DNA of 64,000 bases. Origin: a virus (Duplodnaviria; Caudoviricetes). This document shows, piece by piece, positions 33,220-36,908 of the stretch. Positions within the stretch are counted from its first letter, which is position 1, and each line of letters starts with the position of its first letter. A program made the position numbers and the translations under genes. The notes under the pieces were generated by a model, which worked only from the letters and a program-made list of their open reading frames with translations, did no database searches and had not been told where the DNA came from. The stretch lies in IMG/VR virus record IMGVR_UViG_3300043473_000069, positions 36,669 to 100,668 of that record; one strand, given 5' to 3'.

Positions 33220-34656
33220 TCAGACCCGCTTGCGCCTCGCCACGACGGCCAGCGTCGCTCCAGCAGCGAGCACGAGGGCTGCCGTGGCGGGGATGAGCGG
33301 GTCGTTGCCGGTGGGAGGCAGGCCGGGCTTGGGAGGCGTGCCAGGCCGTGTGGTGGGCGCTCCCGGAGGCGCAGGTGGGTTCTCCGGGTTGGCGCAGGCG
33401 CTCGACTCGGGCGGGTAGGTGATGAACGCCGTGGCCGTGGGGTTCACCGTGTAGGTGAGTCGAATGCCGTCACGGAGATATTCGTCAGAGGGATCACGTA
33501 CCCAAAGACCAGCATCCGTGAGTATCCATCCAGGGACGTCATCGATGCTCCCGTCAGCATTGACGGTGGTGCCAGGATACAGAAGCTCGACATGACCACC
33601 GGGCTGGTAGACGAGGGGCTGGGTGGAGACGACGTTGCCGTTGATGTCACTCATCGTCAACGTACCGGTCTGCCCAGCCAGCGAGGGGAAGCCAGGTGTG
33701 GCGAAGTCGATGACGATGGTCGGGACCTCAGCCCGGCAGACCGTCGCCGCCCCGCTGAACTGGAACGTCGCCGGGAGGGTCGTCGTGGTTCCTGGCAGGG
33801 TGGTTGTAGTGGTGCCAGAGATCGTCGTCGTCGTCACGCCAGTGGATGTCGTGGTAGAGCCAGGCATCGTCGTCGTCGGCCCAGTCGTAGATGTGGGGCT
33901 GGTCGTCGTCGTCGTTGTCGATGGCGTGCTCGTTGTGGTCGTGGTGGTCCCACAGTTTGGTGTCAACTCCACCGTGGCGGTCGCTGTCTGACCCTGGATC
34001 CGGTAGGTCAGCGTCAGCGGTGACTGGAGGCTGGCGGGCCAGGGGATCGTGATGCTCCCCCCGGAGCGGTACACGAGCGGGCCGTACGACGTGCCATCCG
34101 AGAAGTCGAGGATGCCTGACTGGCCGTTGAGGGCGGCGTTGACCGGGAAGTTGATCTGGATGCCGGGCAGGAAGTCCGAGGTGCAGACAGCGAAGACGTT
34201 GATCCCGAACGGCGTGATGACCGGGCCGGTGGTTGTGGTGCCCGCCTGCGTGGTAGTCGTTGTCCCACCACCGCCCGTCGTCGTGGTCGTCGCCAGCGTT
34301 GTCGTCGTCTGCGATGGGGCGGTGGTCGTCGTCTGGTGAGGTGGCTTGGTGGTCGTCGTGGCTGCCGCAGTGGTCGTCGTCTCGTGAGGCGGCTTCATCG
34401 TCGTCGTCGGATGAGGCTTCTCCGTCGTCGTCGGGTGCTCGCAGCCGTGACCACCTCCACCGGATCTGTAGCCATCCGGACACTCGGTCGTCGTTGGGTG
34501 CTCGTACGGCTTCGTCGTTGTCGTTTCGTGCGGCTTGGCCGTGGTCGTTGTGTTACCGCCGTATCCACCGTCGTCGGGAGCATCGTTCCCGGTGGCTGCA
34601 GCCTGGGCGGCACACCCTGCTAGCAGAACAGCGAGTAATACGAGTGCTCGGCGCAT
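33220..34656 (-). CDS. Thr-rich cell-surface protein with an LPXTG anchor
   Basis: N-terminal signal/lipobox LAGC; poly-Thr linkers; two related beta domains; LPPTG, TM helix and RRKR. Confidence 0.8.
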   Translation of the reverse strand: MRRALVLLAVLLAGCAAQAAATGNDAPDDGGYGGNTTTTAKPHETTTTKPYEHPTTTECPDGYRSGGGGHGCEHPTTTEKPHPTTTMKPPHETTTTAAATTTTKPPHQTTTTAPSQTTTTLATTTTTGGGGTTTTTQAGTTTTGPVITPFGINVFAVCTSDFLPGIQINFPVNAALNGQSGILDFSDGTSYGPLVYRSGGSITIPWPASLQSPLTLTYRIQGQTATATVELTPNCGTTTTTTSTPSTTTTTTSPTSTTGPTTTMPGSTTTSTGVTTTTISGTTTTTLPGTTTTLPATFQFSGAATVCRAEVPTIVIDFATPGFPSLAGQTGTLTMSDINGNVVSTQPLVYQPGGHVELLYPGTTVNADGSIDDVPGWILTDAGLWVRDPSDEYLRDGIRLTYTVNPTATAFITYPPESSACANPENPPAPPGAPTTRPGTPPKPGLPPTGNDPLIPATAALVLAAGATLAVVARRKRV

Positions 34657-34736: not shown

Positions 34737-36329
34737 TCAGACCCTACCCGCCGAGAAGTCAGCGATCAGGGCCGGGGCTGCGTTGTCGAAGCCCACGACG
34801 TCCAGCATTCCAGCGTCGCTGGGGTCAGCGATGCTGAACTGGTTGGAGCACATGCCGACCACGACCAGCTTGGCCGGGATGCCGGAGAGCTTGCGGTACT
34901 CCTGCAGCGCCTGCACCGGGTGCGACCGTCCGGCGTACGTCTCCGAGTCCGTGTAGATCACGAAGGTGTCCACGCTGACACCGTTCTTGATCGCCCACAG
35001 CATGGGGAGAGCGCAGTCCGTCCGGTCGAACGGCAGACGGCGGGTCATCTCCACCGTCTGGGCCAGGGACATGCCCTGATGGAGGGCCAGGGGGATGAAG
35101 CCCCCCGAGAACGCCATCACAGCCGTCTGCGGCTCGGTCGCCAGCGTCACCAGCGCCATCGCACTCGACGCCTCACGGGCCGAGAGGAAGGTGCCAGCGA
35201 TCTGGCTGCCGTCCATGGAGCCCGACACGTCGAGCGCCACGAGCGTCCGCTTGTTGGCGGGCTCGACGTTGGCGAACGCCATGCCGAACGTCTTGTCCAG
35301 CGAGGCCAGCACCTTGCCCGAGGGCTGCCAGGTGAGGCTCCCCTTGAAGCCACGCCCGTGGGCGTAGGTCACCGCAGCGGTGAGGACGTTGAGCGGGTGG
35401 ATCCGGCTGCCCTTCACCATGCGCTCCGCCACCAGTCGCTCGGCCACCATGGCCTCGGCCCCCGACATCGGCTTGATGGTGCCGTTGGCGGTGAGCCGAC
35501 CGAGGTTCCGCACGAGTGCGCCCATACCGAGGTTCGGGAGCATGGCGTGCCAGACCTTGGGGTCAGCCAGCATCTCGGACGGCACCACCTCCCAGGGGAG
35601 GCGGTACTGCTCGATCAACTGGACGGCCTCGTCCACCGTGGTGCCGTTGTCGTGGAGCTTGTCCACGGCGCCGAGGAACGTGCCCTCGACTCCCGGCACC
35701 TTGTTGACGGCCCAGCCCAGCGCCTTGGCCTTGGACGAGCCCACGGTGGGGCGGGGCTTGGACAGGCGCAGGAGGTCACGGTGCGACCAGCCCTCACGGC
35801 TCTGGTACTTCGCCACCTGGAGGCACAGGTCATCCAGGTCACGATTCATGTACCAGTCACCGATGGCCGTCCGCAGCGAGCGGCCCCAGCCCCGGAACTG
35901 CTCGACGTAGGAGGCGAACAGGAAGAGGTGGGTACCGGTGCGGCAGACCAGCGGCAGTGCATCGAGCGCCGCCTGACGCACGGTCAGGTCCTCGGCCCCG
36001 GCGCACGCAGCGAGGGCGAACATCGTCGGGTGCTGCTTGGGCGCCCGTCCGTTGACGGAGATGTCCACGATCGTCTGCACGACACGGTCACCGTCCTTGG
36101 CGATGCAGCGCAGGAGCGCAGCGGCGGCGTCCTTGGTGAGCTTCTGCTCCGACGTGTAGTACGTCCCGCCCTCCGTGCCCAGCACGAGGAAGCGGTTGAG
36201 CAGCGTCCAGTCGTCCACCTTGAACGACCAGCCACCGGCAGCGTTGGGCGCCTGGTCGAGGATGCGACCGGGCAGCGGCTCCGTCTGCGGCGTGGCTCGG
36301 GTGGAAACGTTGTGATACGGCGTGGGCAT
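34737..36329 (-). CDS. rsr: Ro60/TROVE-domain RNA-binding protein (Rsr orthologue)
   Basis: NAAGG..RFLVLGTEGGTYY, VCRTGTHLF, KYQSREGWSHRDLLRL, ALVRNL, RIHP, vWA MIDAS DVSGSM, TDCALPM, TDSET and IADP..MLDVVGFD. The ATG at 36329 has GGAGG 7 nt upstream. Confidence 0.97.
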   Translation of the reverse strand: MPTPYHNVSTRATPQTEPLPGRILDQAPNAAGGWSFKVDDWTLLNRFLVLGTEGGTYYTSEQKLTKDAAAALLRCIAKDGDRVVQTIVDISVNGRAPKQHPTMFALAACAGAEDLTVRQAALDALPLVCRTGTHLFLFASYVEQFRGWGRSLRTAIGDWYMNRDLDDLCLQVAKYQSREGWSHRDLLRLSKPRPTVGSSKAKALGWAVNKVPGVEGTFLGAVDKLHDNGTTVDEAVQLIEQYRLPWEVVPSEMLADPKVWHAMLPNLGMGALVRNLGRLTANGTIKPMSGAEAMVAERLVAERMVKGSRIHPLNVLTAAVTYAHGRGFKGSLTWQPSGKVLASLDKTFGMAFANVEPANKRTLVALDVSGSMDGSQIAGTFLSAREASSAMALVTLATEPQTAVMAFSGGFIPLALHQGMSLAQTVEMTRRLPFDRTDCALPMLWAIKNGVSVDTFVIYTDSETYAGRSHPVQALQEYRKLSGIPAKLVVVGMCSNQFSIADPSDAGMLDVVGFDNAAPALIADFSAGRV

Positions 36330-36336
36330 GGTGGGT

Positions 36337-36424
36337 CCTCCGGTCAAGTGAGTGACGGCCCTACAGGCGGGGCTTTGAACCCCGGACCTCTCCCAAAGAG
36401 AACAGGCCGTCTCCGGCCCGAAGG
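36337..36424 (-). ncRNA. Y RNA element 5, overlapping the Ro60 RBS
   Basis: CCUUCGG/CCGGAGG stem and Ro helix; T-like arm CGGGG-UUCAAAG-CCCCG. Confidence 0.82.
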
Positions 36425-36439
36425 TGGGCCAGACTGAGC

Positions 36440-36562
36440 GCTGCGGGCAAGTGAGTGCCAGCCGGTATCCCCAGCCGAAGCTGGGGTCCCGGTTCGGTAG
36501 ATCCGGGTTGGCGGATTCGAAACCGCCTGGTACCTGGTAACCGGATGACTCCGGCCCGCAGC
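36440..36562 (-). ncRNA. Y RNA element 4
   Basis: GCUGCGGG/CCCGCAGC stem and Ro helix; T-like arm GGCGG-UUUCGAAU-CCGCC; two further hairpins, one with a cUUCGg loop. Confidence 0.85.
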
Positions 36563-36574
36563 TATGAGTTGTGT

Positions 36575-36683
36575 GTTACGGACAAGTTGTGCGACCCGAG
36601 TCCCCAACCAACAGGGGTTCGGGAGCCTTGCGGCCCCCGGTAGGAATCGAACCAACGATGAACGGACCACTCCGGCCCGTAAC
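36575..36683 (-). ncRNA. Y RNA element 3, YrlA-type
   Basis: GUUACGG/CCGUAAC stem with GCCGGAG/ACUUG; T loop UUCGAUU; CGGGGGCC-GCAA-GGCUCCCG; D-like arm CCCC-UGUUGGUU-GGGG. Confidence 0.87.
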
Positions 36684-36691
36684 GAGTAGGT

Positions 36692-36818
36692 GCTGAGGTC
36701 AAGTGATGCTGCTCGGGGTTTGCCGCTCTACCAACTGAGCTAACGGGTTGCCCCGTACGGGATTCGAACCCGTGACCTGCCCTTTACAAGAGGTAACCGA
36801 ACTGCTCCGGCCCTCAGC
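36692..36818 (-). ncRNA. Y RNA element 2, YrlA-type permuted tRNA mimic
   Basis: GCUGAGG/CCUCAGC terminal stem and Ro helix; T arm ACGGG-UUCGAAU-CCCGU; GCAA-capped acceptor stem; D arm GCUC-AGUUGGUA-GAGC. Confidence 0.92.
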
Positions 36819-36833
36819 GAGATCTGTTGTCAA

Positions 36834-36908
36834 TGCTCCGGTCAAGTGAGTGCCAGCGGGGTGGATGTGTTTCAGATACAGGTAACCCGCTAGCTCCGGC
36901 CCGGAGCA
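36834..36908 (-). ncRNA. Y RNA-like element 1 (short, no T/D arms)
   Basis: UGCUCCGG-GCCGGAG...CACUCACUUGA-CCGGAGCA: terminal stem plus Ro60-binding helix; starts just after a sigma70-type promoter. Confidence 0.8.

What the first reader, a model, noticed from the sequence alone, without database searches (positions are those of the whole stretch)
36692..36818. Y RNA that is a complete circularly permuted tRNA-Thr(UGU), anticodon loop included
Seen on the minus strand: Ro stem, then CCU-CUUGUAA-AGGGC, AGGUC (variable loop), a T arm (ACGGG-UUCGAAU-CCCGU), an acceptor stem sealed by GCAA, UA, a D arm (GCUC-AGUUGGUA-GAGC), G-GC, and back to the Ro stem. Joining the final GC to CCU rebuilds a perfect 5-bp anticodon stem (GCCCU/AGGGC) with the canonical 7-nt loop CU-UGU-AA. 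The Ro-binding stem is therefore inserted between tRNA positions 28 and 29. Known: described YrlA RNAs keep the D, T and closed acceptor arms but replace the anticodon arm with the Ro60 stem. Inference: this is an unchargeable full tRNA mimic that could decoy anticodon nucleases (VapC/PrrC/RloC-type) or tRNA-modifying enzymes. It may also be an evolutionary intermediate between tRNA and YrlA.
Basis: partly seen in the sequence, partly recalled or inferred. Interest (0 to 1): 0.9.

Follow-up and report, generated by a model that had tools for sequence, protein, structure and literature searches.

The report
Phage Y RNA with anticodon-arm mimic
A phage-encoded Y RNA next to a Ro60 gene really does fold into a rearranged, almost complete tRNA with an anticodon-like loop. 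The same loop occurs in about two thirds of the related bacterial and phage Y RNAs surveyed, so it is a family trait that seems to have been overlooked rather than a unique intermediate.

Summary
Window 36692-36818 (minus strand) is the second of five Y-RNA-like units upstream of a phage Ro60/rsr gene. When permuted in silico, ARAGORN calls it tRNA-Thr(UGU) with a clean cloverleaf.

The anticodon stem is split. Three pairs come from a local hairpin (CCU/AGG, loop CUUGUAA). Two pairs (GC/GC) form between the nucleotides after the hairpin and those after the D arm.

This layout is not special to this RNA:
- 52 of 76 YrlA-like elements from many phyla and phages have exactly 2+3 pairs and a 7-nt loop (shuffles give 3.7 ± 1.8).
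- Both helices covary.
- The loops keep U33, R37 and A38, while the "anticodon" varies (29 triplets).

The hairpin is the "V stem-loop" already drawn by Chen et al. 2014. Their M. smegmatis probe sequence reads CCA-CUUCUAA-UGG. Wang et al. 2018 already describe YrlA as circularly permuted tRNAs.

So this is a new member of a known class, not an evolutionary intermediate. No paper I could read treats the V arm as an anticodon-arm mimic. A decoy role is untested. GenBank and ARAGORN mislabel such RNAs as tRNAs, and Rfam's YrlA threshold misses them.

The parts
36692..36818 (-). Y RNA unit 2 (YrlA class), 127 nt: the finding
   Evidence: Sequence read. Local match to Rfam YrlA at 36722-36780 (40.4 bits). 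Model R1 scores 81.8 bits at 36722-36793.
36812..36818 (-). 5' strand of the closing stem (GCUGAGG); pairs with 36692-36698
36805..36813 (-). Candidate Ro60-contact motif GGGCCGGAG on the 5' strand of the Y-RNA helix; its partner CACUUGACC lies at 36697-36705
   Evidence: Aligned to the conserved stem of the stem-bulge/Y-RNA family RF01656. The same motif occurs in all five units.
36794..36798 (-). Conserved GGUUA (the YUAY motif of YrlA) at the three-way junction
   Evidence: Nearly invariant in alignment A3. Chen 2014 places YUAY at the start of the V region.
36781..36793 (-). Anticodon-like hairpin CCU-CUUGUAA-AGG (tRNA positions 29-41)
   Evidence: 94% paired with compensatory changes in 57 homologues.
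36779..36780 (-). GC (tRNA positions 42-43) pairing with GC at 36722-36723 (positions 27-28)
   Evidence: 94.6% paired in 57 homologues, with changes on both sides in 24-28 of them
36774..36778 (-). Variable loop AGGUC (positions 44-48)
36757..36773 (-). T arm ACGGG-UUCGAAU-CCCGU
36743..36756 (-). Closed acceptor-stem hairpin ACGGG-GCAA-CCCGU (5 bp)
36725..36742 (-). U8 and A9 plus the D arm GCUC-AGUUGGUA-GAGC
36692..36721 (-). 3' strand of the Ro stem (AAACCCCGAGC...CACUUGACCUCAGC)
36835..36908 (-). Y RNA unit 1 (short, no tRNA-like domain)
   Evidence: RF01656 at 43 bits, above the gathering score
36573..36684 (-). Y RNA unit 3 (divergent YrlA-like unit without the hairpin)
   Evidence: RF02553 at 27.7 bits; R1 at 27.5 bits. 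Absent from the close relative L003.
36440..36563 (-). Y RNA unit 4
   Evidence: RF01656 at 41.1 bits, above the gathering score; fold z-score -5.8
36337..36425 (-). Y RNA unit 5 (hairpin CUC-UUUGGGA-GAG plus a T-like arm)
   Evidence: RF01656 at 25.3 bits and Deinococcus Y RNA at 24 bits, both below the gathering score
34737..36347 (-). rsr (Ro60 orthologue), 536 aa
   Evidence: Pfam TROVE 3.5e-37 and vWA_Ro60 1.1e-64

Best explanation
This is a YrlA-class Y RNA of an actinophage-like virus. It is one of five tandem Y RNA units, probably co-transcribed with the phage's own Ro60 (rsr) gene.

Its paired 5' and 3' ends form the helix that Ro60 binds. The other end is a circularly permuted tRNA body with a T arm, a closed 5-bp acceptor hairpin, a D arm and a 5-nt variable loop.

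The body also carries an anticodon arm built from two parts. Two base pairs form between the nucleotides after the hairpin and the nucleotides after the D arm (positions 42-43 with 27-28). Directly abutting them is a 3-bp hairpin with a 7-nt loop. No unpaired nucleotide separates the two helices, so they most likely stack into a 5-bp anticodon-stem look-alike. The Ro stem then leaves as the third arm of a three-way junction between positions 28 and 29.

The RNA cannot be charged. It most likely presents an almost whole tRNA shape, anticodon loop included, to one or more tRNA-binding proteins. It would either tether them to Ro60 or compete with real tRNAs for them.

Shown here: the sequence anatomy, the permuted tRNA call, and the conservation and covariation of both helices and of the loop signature.

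Inferred: coaxial stacking, Ro60 binding, and any effector or decoy activity.
For: - **Context.** The Ro60 gene lies immediately downstream on the same strand. Five units carry the Y-RNA helix motif.
- **tRNA core.** The core aligns to Rfam YrlA positions 24-84.
- **Permutation.** The permuted sequence is called tRNA-Thr(tgt). Read off that cloverleaf, it keeps U8, A14, G15/C48, G18G19, G26/A44, G46, G53/C61, U54/A58, U55 and C56.
- **Compensatory changes.** The M. abscessus prophage homologue has CCA/UGG and CU/AG where the window has CCU/AGG and GC/GC, with the identical loop CUUGUAA.
- **Geometry.** 52 of 76 YrlA-like elements fit 2+3 bp plus a 7-nt loop, against 3.7 ± 1.8 in shuffles.
- **Covariation.** In 57 elements found through the Ro60 gene, the hairpin is 94% paired and the 2-bp helix 94.6% paired, with compensatory changes at all five pairs. 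None of 500 shuffles reached the observed values, and slid controls gave 38-49% pairing.
- **Loop signature.** U33 in 47/52, R37 in 48/52, A38 in 47/52 and Y32 in 44/52. This matches 1087 real tRNAs from the same loci.
Against: - The MFE fold uses a different local hairpin and is 4.9 kcal/mol more stable than the proposed fold.
- In the only solved YrlA structure (S. Typhimurium, which has no hairpin), the Ro-side stem itself continues under the short anticodon-stem top with a kink (Wang 2018). The hairpin could therefore project sideways instead of stacking.
- The alignment used for the pair counts was fitted to the model.
- The sequences are related to one another, so nominal p-values overstate significance.
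- No expression, Ro60-binding or effector data exist for this RNA.
Confidence: 0.75

Rival explanations
1. Variable-arm reading, as drawn by Chen et al. 2014. The hairpin is an extra or variable arm that sticks out, while the Ro stem stacks under the 2-bp helix as in the Salmonella crystal structure. The anticodon-loop look is an inherited relic of a tRNA ancestor with no role of its own.
For: - Chen 2014 orient this stem-loop as 'V'.
- The S. Typhimurium structure shows the Ro-side stem continuing from the anticodon-stem top through a UA kink at the same YUAY motif.
- About a third of YrlA-like elements lack the canonical hairpin, or have 3-5-nt or 8-10-nt loops.
Against: - A relic would decay, yet U33, R37 and A38 are each kept in about 90% of 52 loops from many phyla, while the stems covary and positions 34-35 vary freely.
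- Stem length is fixed so that hairpin plus 2-bp helix equals 5 bp in 52 of 76 elements, with a 7-nt loop far more common than any other length.
- No unpaired nucleotide lies between the hairpin and positions 42-43.
Confidence: 0.2
2. The RNA is a dedicated decoy for a tRNA-Thr(UGU)-specific anticodon nuclease or modification enzyme, protecting phage translation.
For: - The loop CUUGUAA is identical in the window, a relative with 86% Ro60 identity, an M. abscessus prophage and three unrelated viral or MAG loci, despite changed stems.
- Hughes et al. 2020 suggested that YrlA might competitively inhibit an anticodon nuclease.
- A Ro60-like phage protein counters a defence system in phage Bas63 (PMC11482910).
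Against: - The next closest relative by Ro60 (59% identity) has UCC, and prophiT37-1 has an 8-nt loop CUUGCUAA.
- 29 different triplets occur.
- Chromosomal YrlA RNAs of many non-phage lineages carry the same feature, so it is not a phage-specific counter-defence.
- No nuclease is known or linked here.
Confidence: 0.1
3. A permuted pre-tRNA that is matured into a working tRNA-Thr. The Ro stem would be excised, the ends ligated, and the acceptor opened, as in red-algal permuted tRNA genes.
For: - The gene order matches permuted tRNA genes, and Wang 2018 raise this possibility for YrlA.
- M. smegmatis YrlA is cut by RNase P and receives CCA.
- RtcB ligase genes are often linked to rsr in bacteria.
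Against: - The acceptor stem has only 5 bp, with no discriminator base or CCA.
- No RtcB gene is found in the phage record.
- No splicing endonuclease is reported in bacteria.
- Family members carry triplets such as AUU, ACC and UCA, and Ser, Leu or Tyr triplets without a long variable arm.
Confidence: 0.03
4. An ordinary tRNA-Thr gene, as ARAGORN and GenBank annotators call such loci.
For: ARAGORN calls tRNA-Thr(tgt) at 36749-36823. Homologues are annotated tRNA-Thr(tgt) and tRNA-Arg(tct) in GenBank phage records.
Against: - The unpermuted call has no proper acceptor or D arm.
- Rfam tRNA scores only 19.4 bits against a threshold of 29.
- The true D arm lies 3' of the T arm.
- ARAGORN finds nothing in the isolated 127-nt unit.
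Confidence: 0.01

Closest known systems
YrlA Y RNAs (Chen et al. 2014, RNA 20:1715; Wang et al. 2018, S. Typhimurium YrlA structure, PDB 6CU1)
   Same: - Encoded next to rsr.
- A terminal helix that binds Ro60.
- A tRNA-like module in the order T arm, closed acceptor hairpin, D arm.
- The conserved YUAY motif and the nucleotides for tRNA tertiary contacts.
- Already described as circularly permuted tRNAs.
- Many members, including M. smegmatis YrlA, have the same hairpin, which the authors call the V stem-loop.
   Different: - The crystallised Salmonella RNA has no hairpin and is stated to lack the anticodon loop.
- In the papers I could read, the hairpin is treated as a variable arm or loop. 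Its anticodon-loop signature and the 2+3 split stem are not mentioned.
- This copy is viral, has a 5-bp acceptor hairpin, and sits in a five-unit array.
Mycobacteriophage and prophage Y RNAs beside 'Ro-like RNA binding protein' genes (prophiGD43A-5, prophiT37-1, cluster C phages such as ET08 and Flabslab, Microbacterium phage Magritte)
   Same: - A tandem Y RNA array upstream of rsr.
- The same hairpin geometry.
- prophiGD43A-5 unit 1 has the identical loop CUUGUAA, with compensatory stem changes.
   Different: - DNA identity is only about 69-76%.
- Triplets differ: UCU in Magritte, UGA in Flabslab, and an 8-nt loop in prophiT37-1.
- These RNAs are annotated in GenBank as tRNAs, as hypothetical proteins, or not at all.
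Circularly permuted tRNA genes of Cyanidioschyzon merolae and some archaea
   Same: [quoted passage not shown]
   Different: Those genes are processed through a bulge-helix-bulge motif into functional tRNAs. Here there is no such motif, the acceptor stem is short, Ro60 is linked, and there is no evidence of maturation.
Other tRNA mimics with anticodon-arm look-alikes (TYMV tRNA-like structure; tmRNA with SmpB)
   Same: An L-shaped tRNA mimic that includes an anticodon-domain equivalent.
   Different: Those have a free CCA end and are aminoacylated. This RNA has a closed acceptor and a Ro60-binding arm.

Membership tests
YrlA Y RNA (literature definition, Chen et al. 2014) | Encoded adjacent to a Ro60/rsr gene | tested here: met
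   rsr lies at 34737-36347 on the same strand, 345 nt downstream of the unit's 3' end. Pfam TROVE and vWA_Ro60 both match.
YrlA Y RNA (literature definition, Chen et al. 2014) | 5' and 3' ends pair into a helix carrying the Ro60-contact motif (GNCGAAN0-1G, or GGUCCGA-like) on the 5' strand | tested here: inconclusive
   The helix is present. The motif here reads GCCGGAG, one mismatch from GNCGAA(N)G. The stem aligns to the stem-bulge/Y-RNA family RF01656 at 24.3 bits, below its gathering score of 38. Sister units 1 and 4 pass that score. Ro60 binding was not tested.
YrlA Y RNA (literature definition, Chen et al. 2014) | Conserved T arm, then a closed 'acceptor' hairpin, then a D arm, with the nucleotides for tRNA tertiary contacts | tested here: met
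   Local alignment to RF02553 positions 24-84. ARAGORN gives a cloverleaf for the permuted sequence.
YrlA Y RNA (literature definition, Chen et al. 2014) | Conserved YUAY preceding the V region, with an optional V stem-loop upstream of the T arm | tested here: met
   UUAC at RNA positions 23-26, followed by the hairpin. Conserved in alignments A3 and A4.
Rfam RF02553 (YrlA covariance model) | Score at or above the gathering threshold of 69 bits | tested here: not met
   40.4 bits, as a local match only. No RF02553 hit at gathering in the window or in 20 loci holding hairpin-bearing homologues. The model's consensus has a 3-nt bulge where the hairpin sits.
Canonical tRNA gene | Arm order acceptor 5', D, anticodon, variable, T, acceptor 3', with an open 7-bp acceptor stem | tested here: not met
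   The order is anticodon hairpin, variable loop, T, closed 5-bp acceptor, D. Rfam tRNA scores 19.4 bits against a threshold of 29.
Circularly permuted tRNA genes that mature into tRNA | A bulge-helix-bulge processing motif at the paired termini and maturation to an aminoacylatable tRNA | not testable with these tools
   Maturation cannot be tested in silico. The indirect evidence is negative: a short acceptor stem and no RtcB gene in the phage record.

The most novel reading that the evidence does not exclude
Most YrlA Y RNAs, not only this one, carry a selected anticodon stem-loop mimic, so the published 'V arm' would be a split anticodon arm. The 3' side of the loop falls into two classes.
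- U36-A37-A38 occurs in 25 of 49 loops.
- G36-G37-A38 occurs in 13 of 49 loops.

From my own knowledge of tRNA biology, these match the recognition contexts of t6A37 synthesis (TsaD complex) and of TrmD (m1G37). If so, Ro60/YrlA particles would engage enzymes or nucleases that read the anticodon loop. Phage arrays with different triplets could then act as panels of decoys or sensors in phage-host conflict.
Probability: 0.3. Interest if true: 0.75.

Novelty: new member of a known kind. Interest (0 to 1): 0.55.

Why it matters
The effector that YrlA's tRNA-like domain recruits to Ro60 is still unknown. Published work points to the tRNA elbow as the contact site.

If most YrlA RNAs also keep an anticodon-arm look-alike, with U33, R37 and A38 conserved and a free triplet, the candidates widen. 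They would include proteins that read the anticodon loop, such as position-37 modification enzymes, anticodon nucleases and perhaps synthetases. This gives a concrete, testable handle.

There are also practical consequences for annotation:
- Phage annotators and ARAGORN label these RNAs as tRNA genes, or lay hypothetical ORFs over them.
- Rfam's YrlA threshold missed the hairpin-bearing form in all 20 loci tested, so Y RNAs are under-annotated in phage and actinobacterial genomes.

Tried and rejected
- **MFE folding**. It does not reproduce the proposed junction and prefers ACCUCUU-GUAAA-GGG(C)AGGU. That alternative is not conserved in homologues, so I rejected it.
- **Promoter scan**. No sigma-70-type promoter passed the scan upstream of the array. 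A hand-read TTGCGC-17-TATCTT before unit 1 stays unverified.
- **Pseudoknot between the loop and GGUUA.** I considered pairing between the loop 3' side (UAA or GGA) and the conserved GGUUA or following nucleotides. I rejected it because both loop classes occur with the same upstream motifs.
- **Decoy panel in this window.** In the 86%-identical relative L003, unit 1's 7-nt loop is 6 nt, unit 5's hairpin has diverged, and unit 3 is absent. Only unit 2 has solid support.
- **Recent derivation from tRNA-Thr.** I rejected this because the body is the constant YrlA scaffold whatever the triplet.
- **Energy-based hairpin parsing**. It gave ambiguous registers, so I replaced it with a fixed-geometry test and shuffles.
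- **Literature I could not read.** The supplement of Chen 2014 and the reviews by Sim & Wolin 2018, Sim et al. 2020 and Boccitto & Wolin 2019 could not be opened. An earlier remark on anticodon-like V loops cannot be excluded.
- **RtcB.** A search of the phage record found none.

Full report
**What is there.** The window is part of a 100.7-kb IMG/VR virus record. It carries primase, SNF2 helicase, DNA polymerase and muralytic genes. On the minus strand, a 536-aa Ro60/Rsr gene at 34737-36347 matches Pfam TROVE and vWA_Ro60. Five tandem structured units precede it:
- Units 1 and 4 pass the gathering score of the nematode stem-bulge (Y RNA) family RF01656.
- Units 2, 3 and 5 match the same helix model or the YrlA/Deinococcus Y RNA models below threshold.
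- The finding is unit 2, at 36692-36818.

**Checking the observation.** I opened the closed acceptor hairpin in its GCAA loop and joined the 3' GC to the 5' CCU. ARAGORN then called tRNA-Thr(tgt), with a 4-bp D stem, a 5-bp anticodon stem GCCCU/AGGGC, the loop CU-UGU-AA, the variable loop AGGUC and a standard T arm. Only the acceptor stem is short, at 5 bp. Read off that cloverleaf, the nucleotides for the tRNA tertiary contacts are all present. ARAGORN also calls tRNA-Thr(tgt) on the native strand at 36749-36823. That is the only tRNA call in the whole virus record. The nearest-neighbour MFE fold prefers another local hairpin, at -49.4 against -44.5 kcal/mol. The case for the proposed fold therefore rests on comparison with homologues.

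**First comparative evidence.** The closest named relatives are M. abscessus prophages and mycobacteriophages that carry 'Ro-like RNA binding protein' genes. In prophiGD43A-5, the first Y RNA reads CCA-CUUGUAA-UGG, then AG, and has CU after the D arm. Both helices changed on both sides while the loop stayed identical. GenBank annotates it as tRNA-Thr(tgt). Microbacterium phage Magritte has UCA-CUUCUAA-UGA with CG/CG, annotated as tRNA-Arg(tct).

**Wider survey.** I collected loci in three ways:
- 80 bacterial and MAG loci found through the Ro60 protein.
- 8 viral loci found the same way.
- About 120 viral loci found with a pattern that specifies only GGUUA, the T loop and the D arm.

A parser required a T arm, a closed acceptor hairpin and a D arm. 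It gave 76 unique YrlA-like elements. Of these, 52 satisfy 'positions 27-28 pair with 42-43, followed directly by a 3-bp stem and a 7-nt loop'. Shuffles give 3.7 ± 1.8, and other loop lengths give 5-15.

I then built a covariance model from 32 of the elements and used it to align 57 elements from Ro60-anchored loci. The results were:
- The hairpin is 94% paired.
- The long-range 2-bp helix is 94.6% paired.
- All five pairs show compensatory changes.
- None of 500 shuffles reached the observed values.
- Slid-partner controls gave 38-49% pairing.

In that alignment, 44 of 57 elements have a 7-nt loop and 31 are fully canonical. Two caveats apply: the alignment is fitted to the model, and the sequences are related to one another.

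**The loop looks like an anticodon loop.** The table compares the 52 canonical loops with 1087 real tRNAs called by ARAGORN in the same loci.

| Position | YrlA loops (n = 52) | Real tRNAs (n = 1087) |
|---|---|---|
| 32 is C or U | 44 (85%) | 97% |
| 33 is U | 47 (90%) | 94% |
| 37 is a purine | 48 (92%) | 98% |
| 38 is A | 47 (90%) | 71% |

Positions 34-35 vary freely, and 29 different triplets occur. After three doubtful parses were dropped, 49 loops remained:
- Positions 36-38 are UAA in 25 of 49 and GGA in 13 of 49. In real tRNAs the shares are 29% and 5% (nominal p = 1e-3 and 1e-6).
- All 14 loops with G36 have G37, against 45% of real tRNAs with G36.

From my own knowledge, U36-A37 and G36-G37 are the contexts for t6A37 and m1G37. 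That link is a lead, not a result.

- The hairpin is the majority state in YrlA-like RNAs of Actinomycetota, Chloroflexota, Verrucomicrobiota, Armatimonadota, Proteobacteria and many phages. This RNA is therefore not an intermediate between tRNA and YrlA.
- The triplet switches between close relatives. It is UGU here and in L003. The next-closest relative by Ro60 has UCC, Flabslab has UGA, and prophiT37-1 has an 8-nt loop.
- Elements with Ser, Leu or Tyr triplets keep a 4-6-nt variable loop. The body is a constant scaffold, and 'Thr' describes only the triplet.

**Comparison with the literature.**
- Chen et al. [quoted passage not shown]
- Their M. smegmatis YrlA-5' probe is complementary to UUA-CCA-CUUCUAA-UGG-AA-UGGUC, which is the same hairpin.
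- Wang et al. 2018 state that the crystallised S. Typhimurium YrlA 'lacks the anticodon loop'. They place the conserved UA at a kink in the anticodon-stem equivalent. They already describe YrlA as circularly permuted tRNAs and discuss red-algal permuted tRNA genes.
- Hughes et al. 2020 suggested that YrlA may competitively inhibit an anticodon nuclease.
- None of the texts I could open notes that the V hairpin has anticodon-loop features or that it completes a 5-bp stem.

**Mechanism.** The junction has no unpaired nucleotide between the hairpin and positions 42-43. It has one to four nucleotides (UA, or UAY plus more) between the Ro stem and the hairpin. Stem length and loop length are conserved to tRNA values. 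I therefore think the hairpin stacks on the 2-bp helix and the D stem, giving a full L-shaped mimic with the Ro60 arm branching at 28/29. This is an inference, not a demonstrated structure. The alternative is that the hairpin projects sideways, as a variable arm would. Ro60 binding and any effector or decoy role are also inferred.

**Annotation side-results.**
- ARAGORN called 29 YrlA-like elements as tRNAs.
- Rfam's YrlA model reached its gathering score in none of 20 loci with hairpin-bearing elements.
- In phage Flabslab, two hypothetical CDSs are annotated over the Y RNA.

**Verdict.** The object is a new member of the known YrlA class. The family-wide anticodon-arm mimicry appears not to have been described in the literature I could read, and it deserves experimental follow-up.

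Noticed in passing
L001:3009-3087 (MW584167, prophiGD43A-5) and L011:2491-2567 (OR553905, Magritte): GenBank features 'tRNA-Thr (tgt)' and 'tRNA-Arg(tct)' directly upstream of Ro-like genes are YrlA-type Y RNAs, not tRNAs. Across all fetched loci, ARAGORN made 29 such calls on YrlA-like elements.
   Followed up: yes
L212:617-956 (MK359337, phage Flabslab genes 227 and 228): Two short 'hypothetical protein' CDSs are annotated over a strong YrlA-model hit (L212:709-795, 72.8 bits; hairpin CUC-AUUGAAA-GAG) just upstream of the Ro-like gene. They are probably spurious ORFs.
   Followed up: partly
window 36835-36908 and 36440-36563 (minus strand); also L053:3694-3759 and L076:3697-3762: The Rfam nematode stem-bulge RNA family RF01656 passes its gathering score on phage and bacterial Y RNAs. 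The dedicated YrlA model RF02553 hit none of 20 loci that hold hairpin-bearing YrlA-like RNAs.
   Followed up: yes
L021, L022, L024, L025, L034, L044-L047, L054, L057, L062, L067, L081, L086 (mostly upstream of rsr): Many Chloroflexota and other MAG loci have dense arrays of real tRNA genes right next to rsr. These tandem tRNAs also score with the permuted YrlA model.
   Followed up: no
L213:913-988 (prophiT37-1) and L168 (minus strand, T arm at about 4227 of the reverse strand): These variants have an 8-nt loop, CCA-CUUGCUAA-UGG, in place of CUUGUAA. This is a one-nucleotide insertion in an otherwise conserved anticodon-like loop.
   Followed up: no
L014:1633-1703, L018:1801-1874, L019:1632-1709, L012:1703-1774, L078:1240-1317: A second YrlA subclass lacks a separate hairpin (CGGUUAUCGGAUCGGG-type). 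It often sits in the same locus as a hairpin-bearing copy, so many genomes carry one YrlA of each kind.
   Followed up: no
window 36337-36425 (unit 5) and 36573-36684 (unit 3), compared with L003:1990-2560: Array content evolves fast. The relative with 86% Ro60 identity has unit 2 identical base for base, lacks unit 3, has an insertion in unit 4, and has a diverged unit 5. Unit 5 here has CUC-UUUGGGA-GAG followed by a T-like arm but no D arm.
   Followed up: partly
window 33220-34656 (minus strand): A 478-aa ORF immediately downstream of rsr on the same strand has no Pfam or PHROG match.
   Followed up: no
L001:1897-2330 and L213:1-211: In the two M. abscessus prophages, a BrnT-like toxin gene lies just upstream of the Y RNA array on the opposite strand. 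In prophiGD43A-5 an antitoxin gene is annotated beside it.
   Followed up: no
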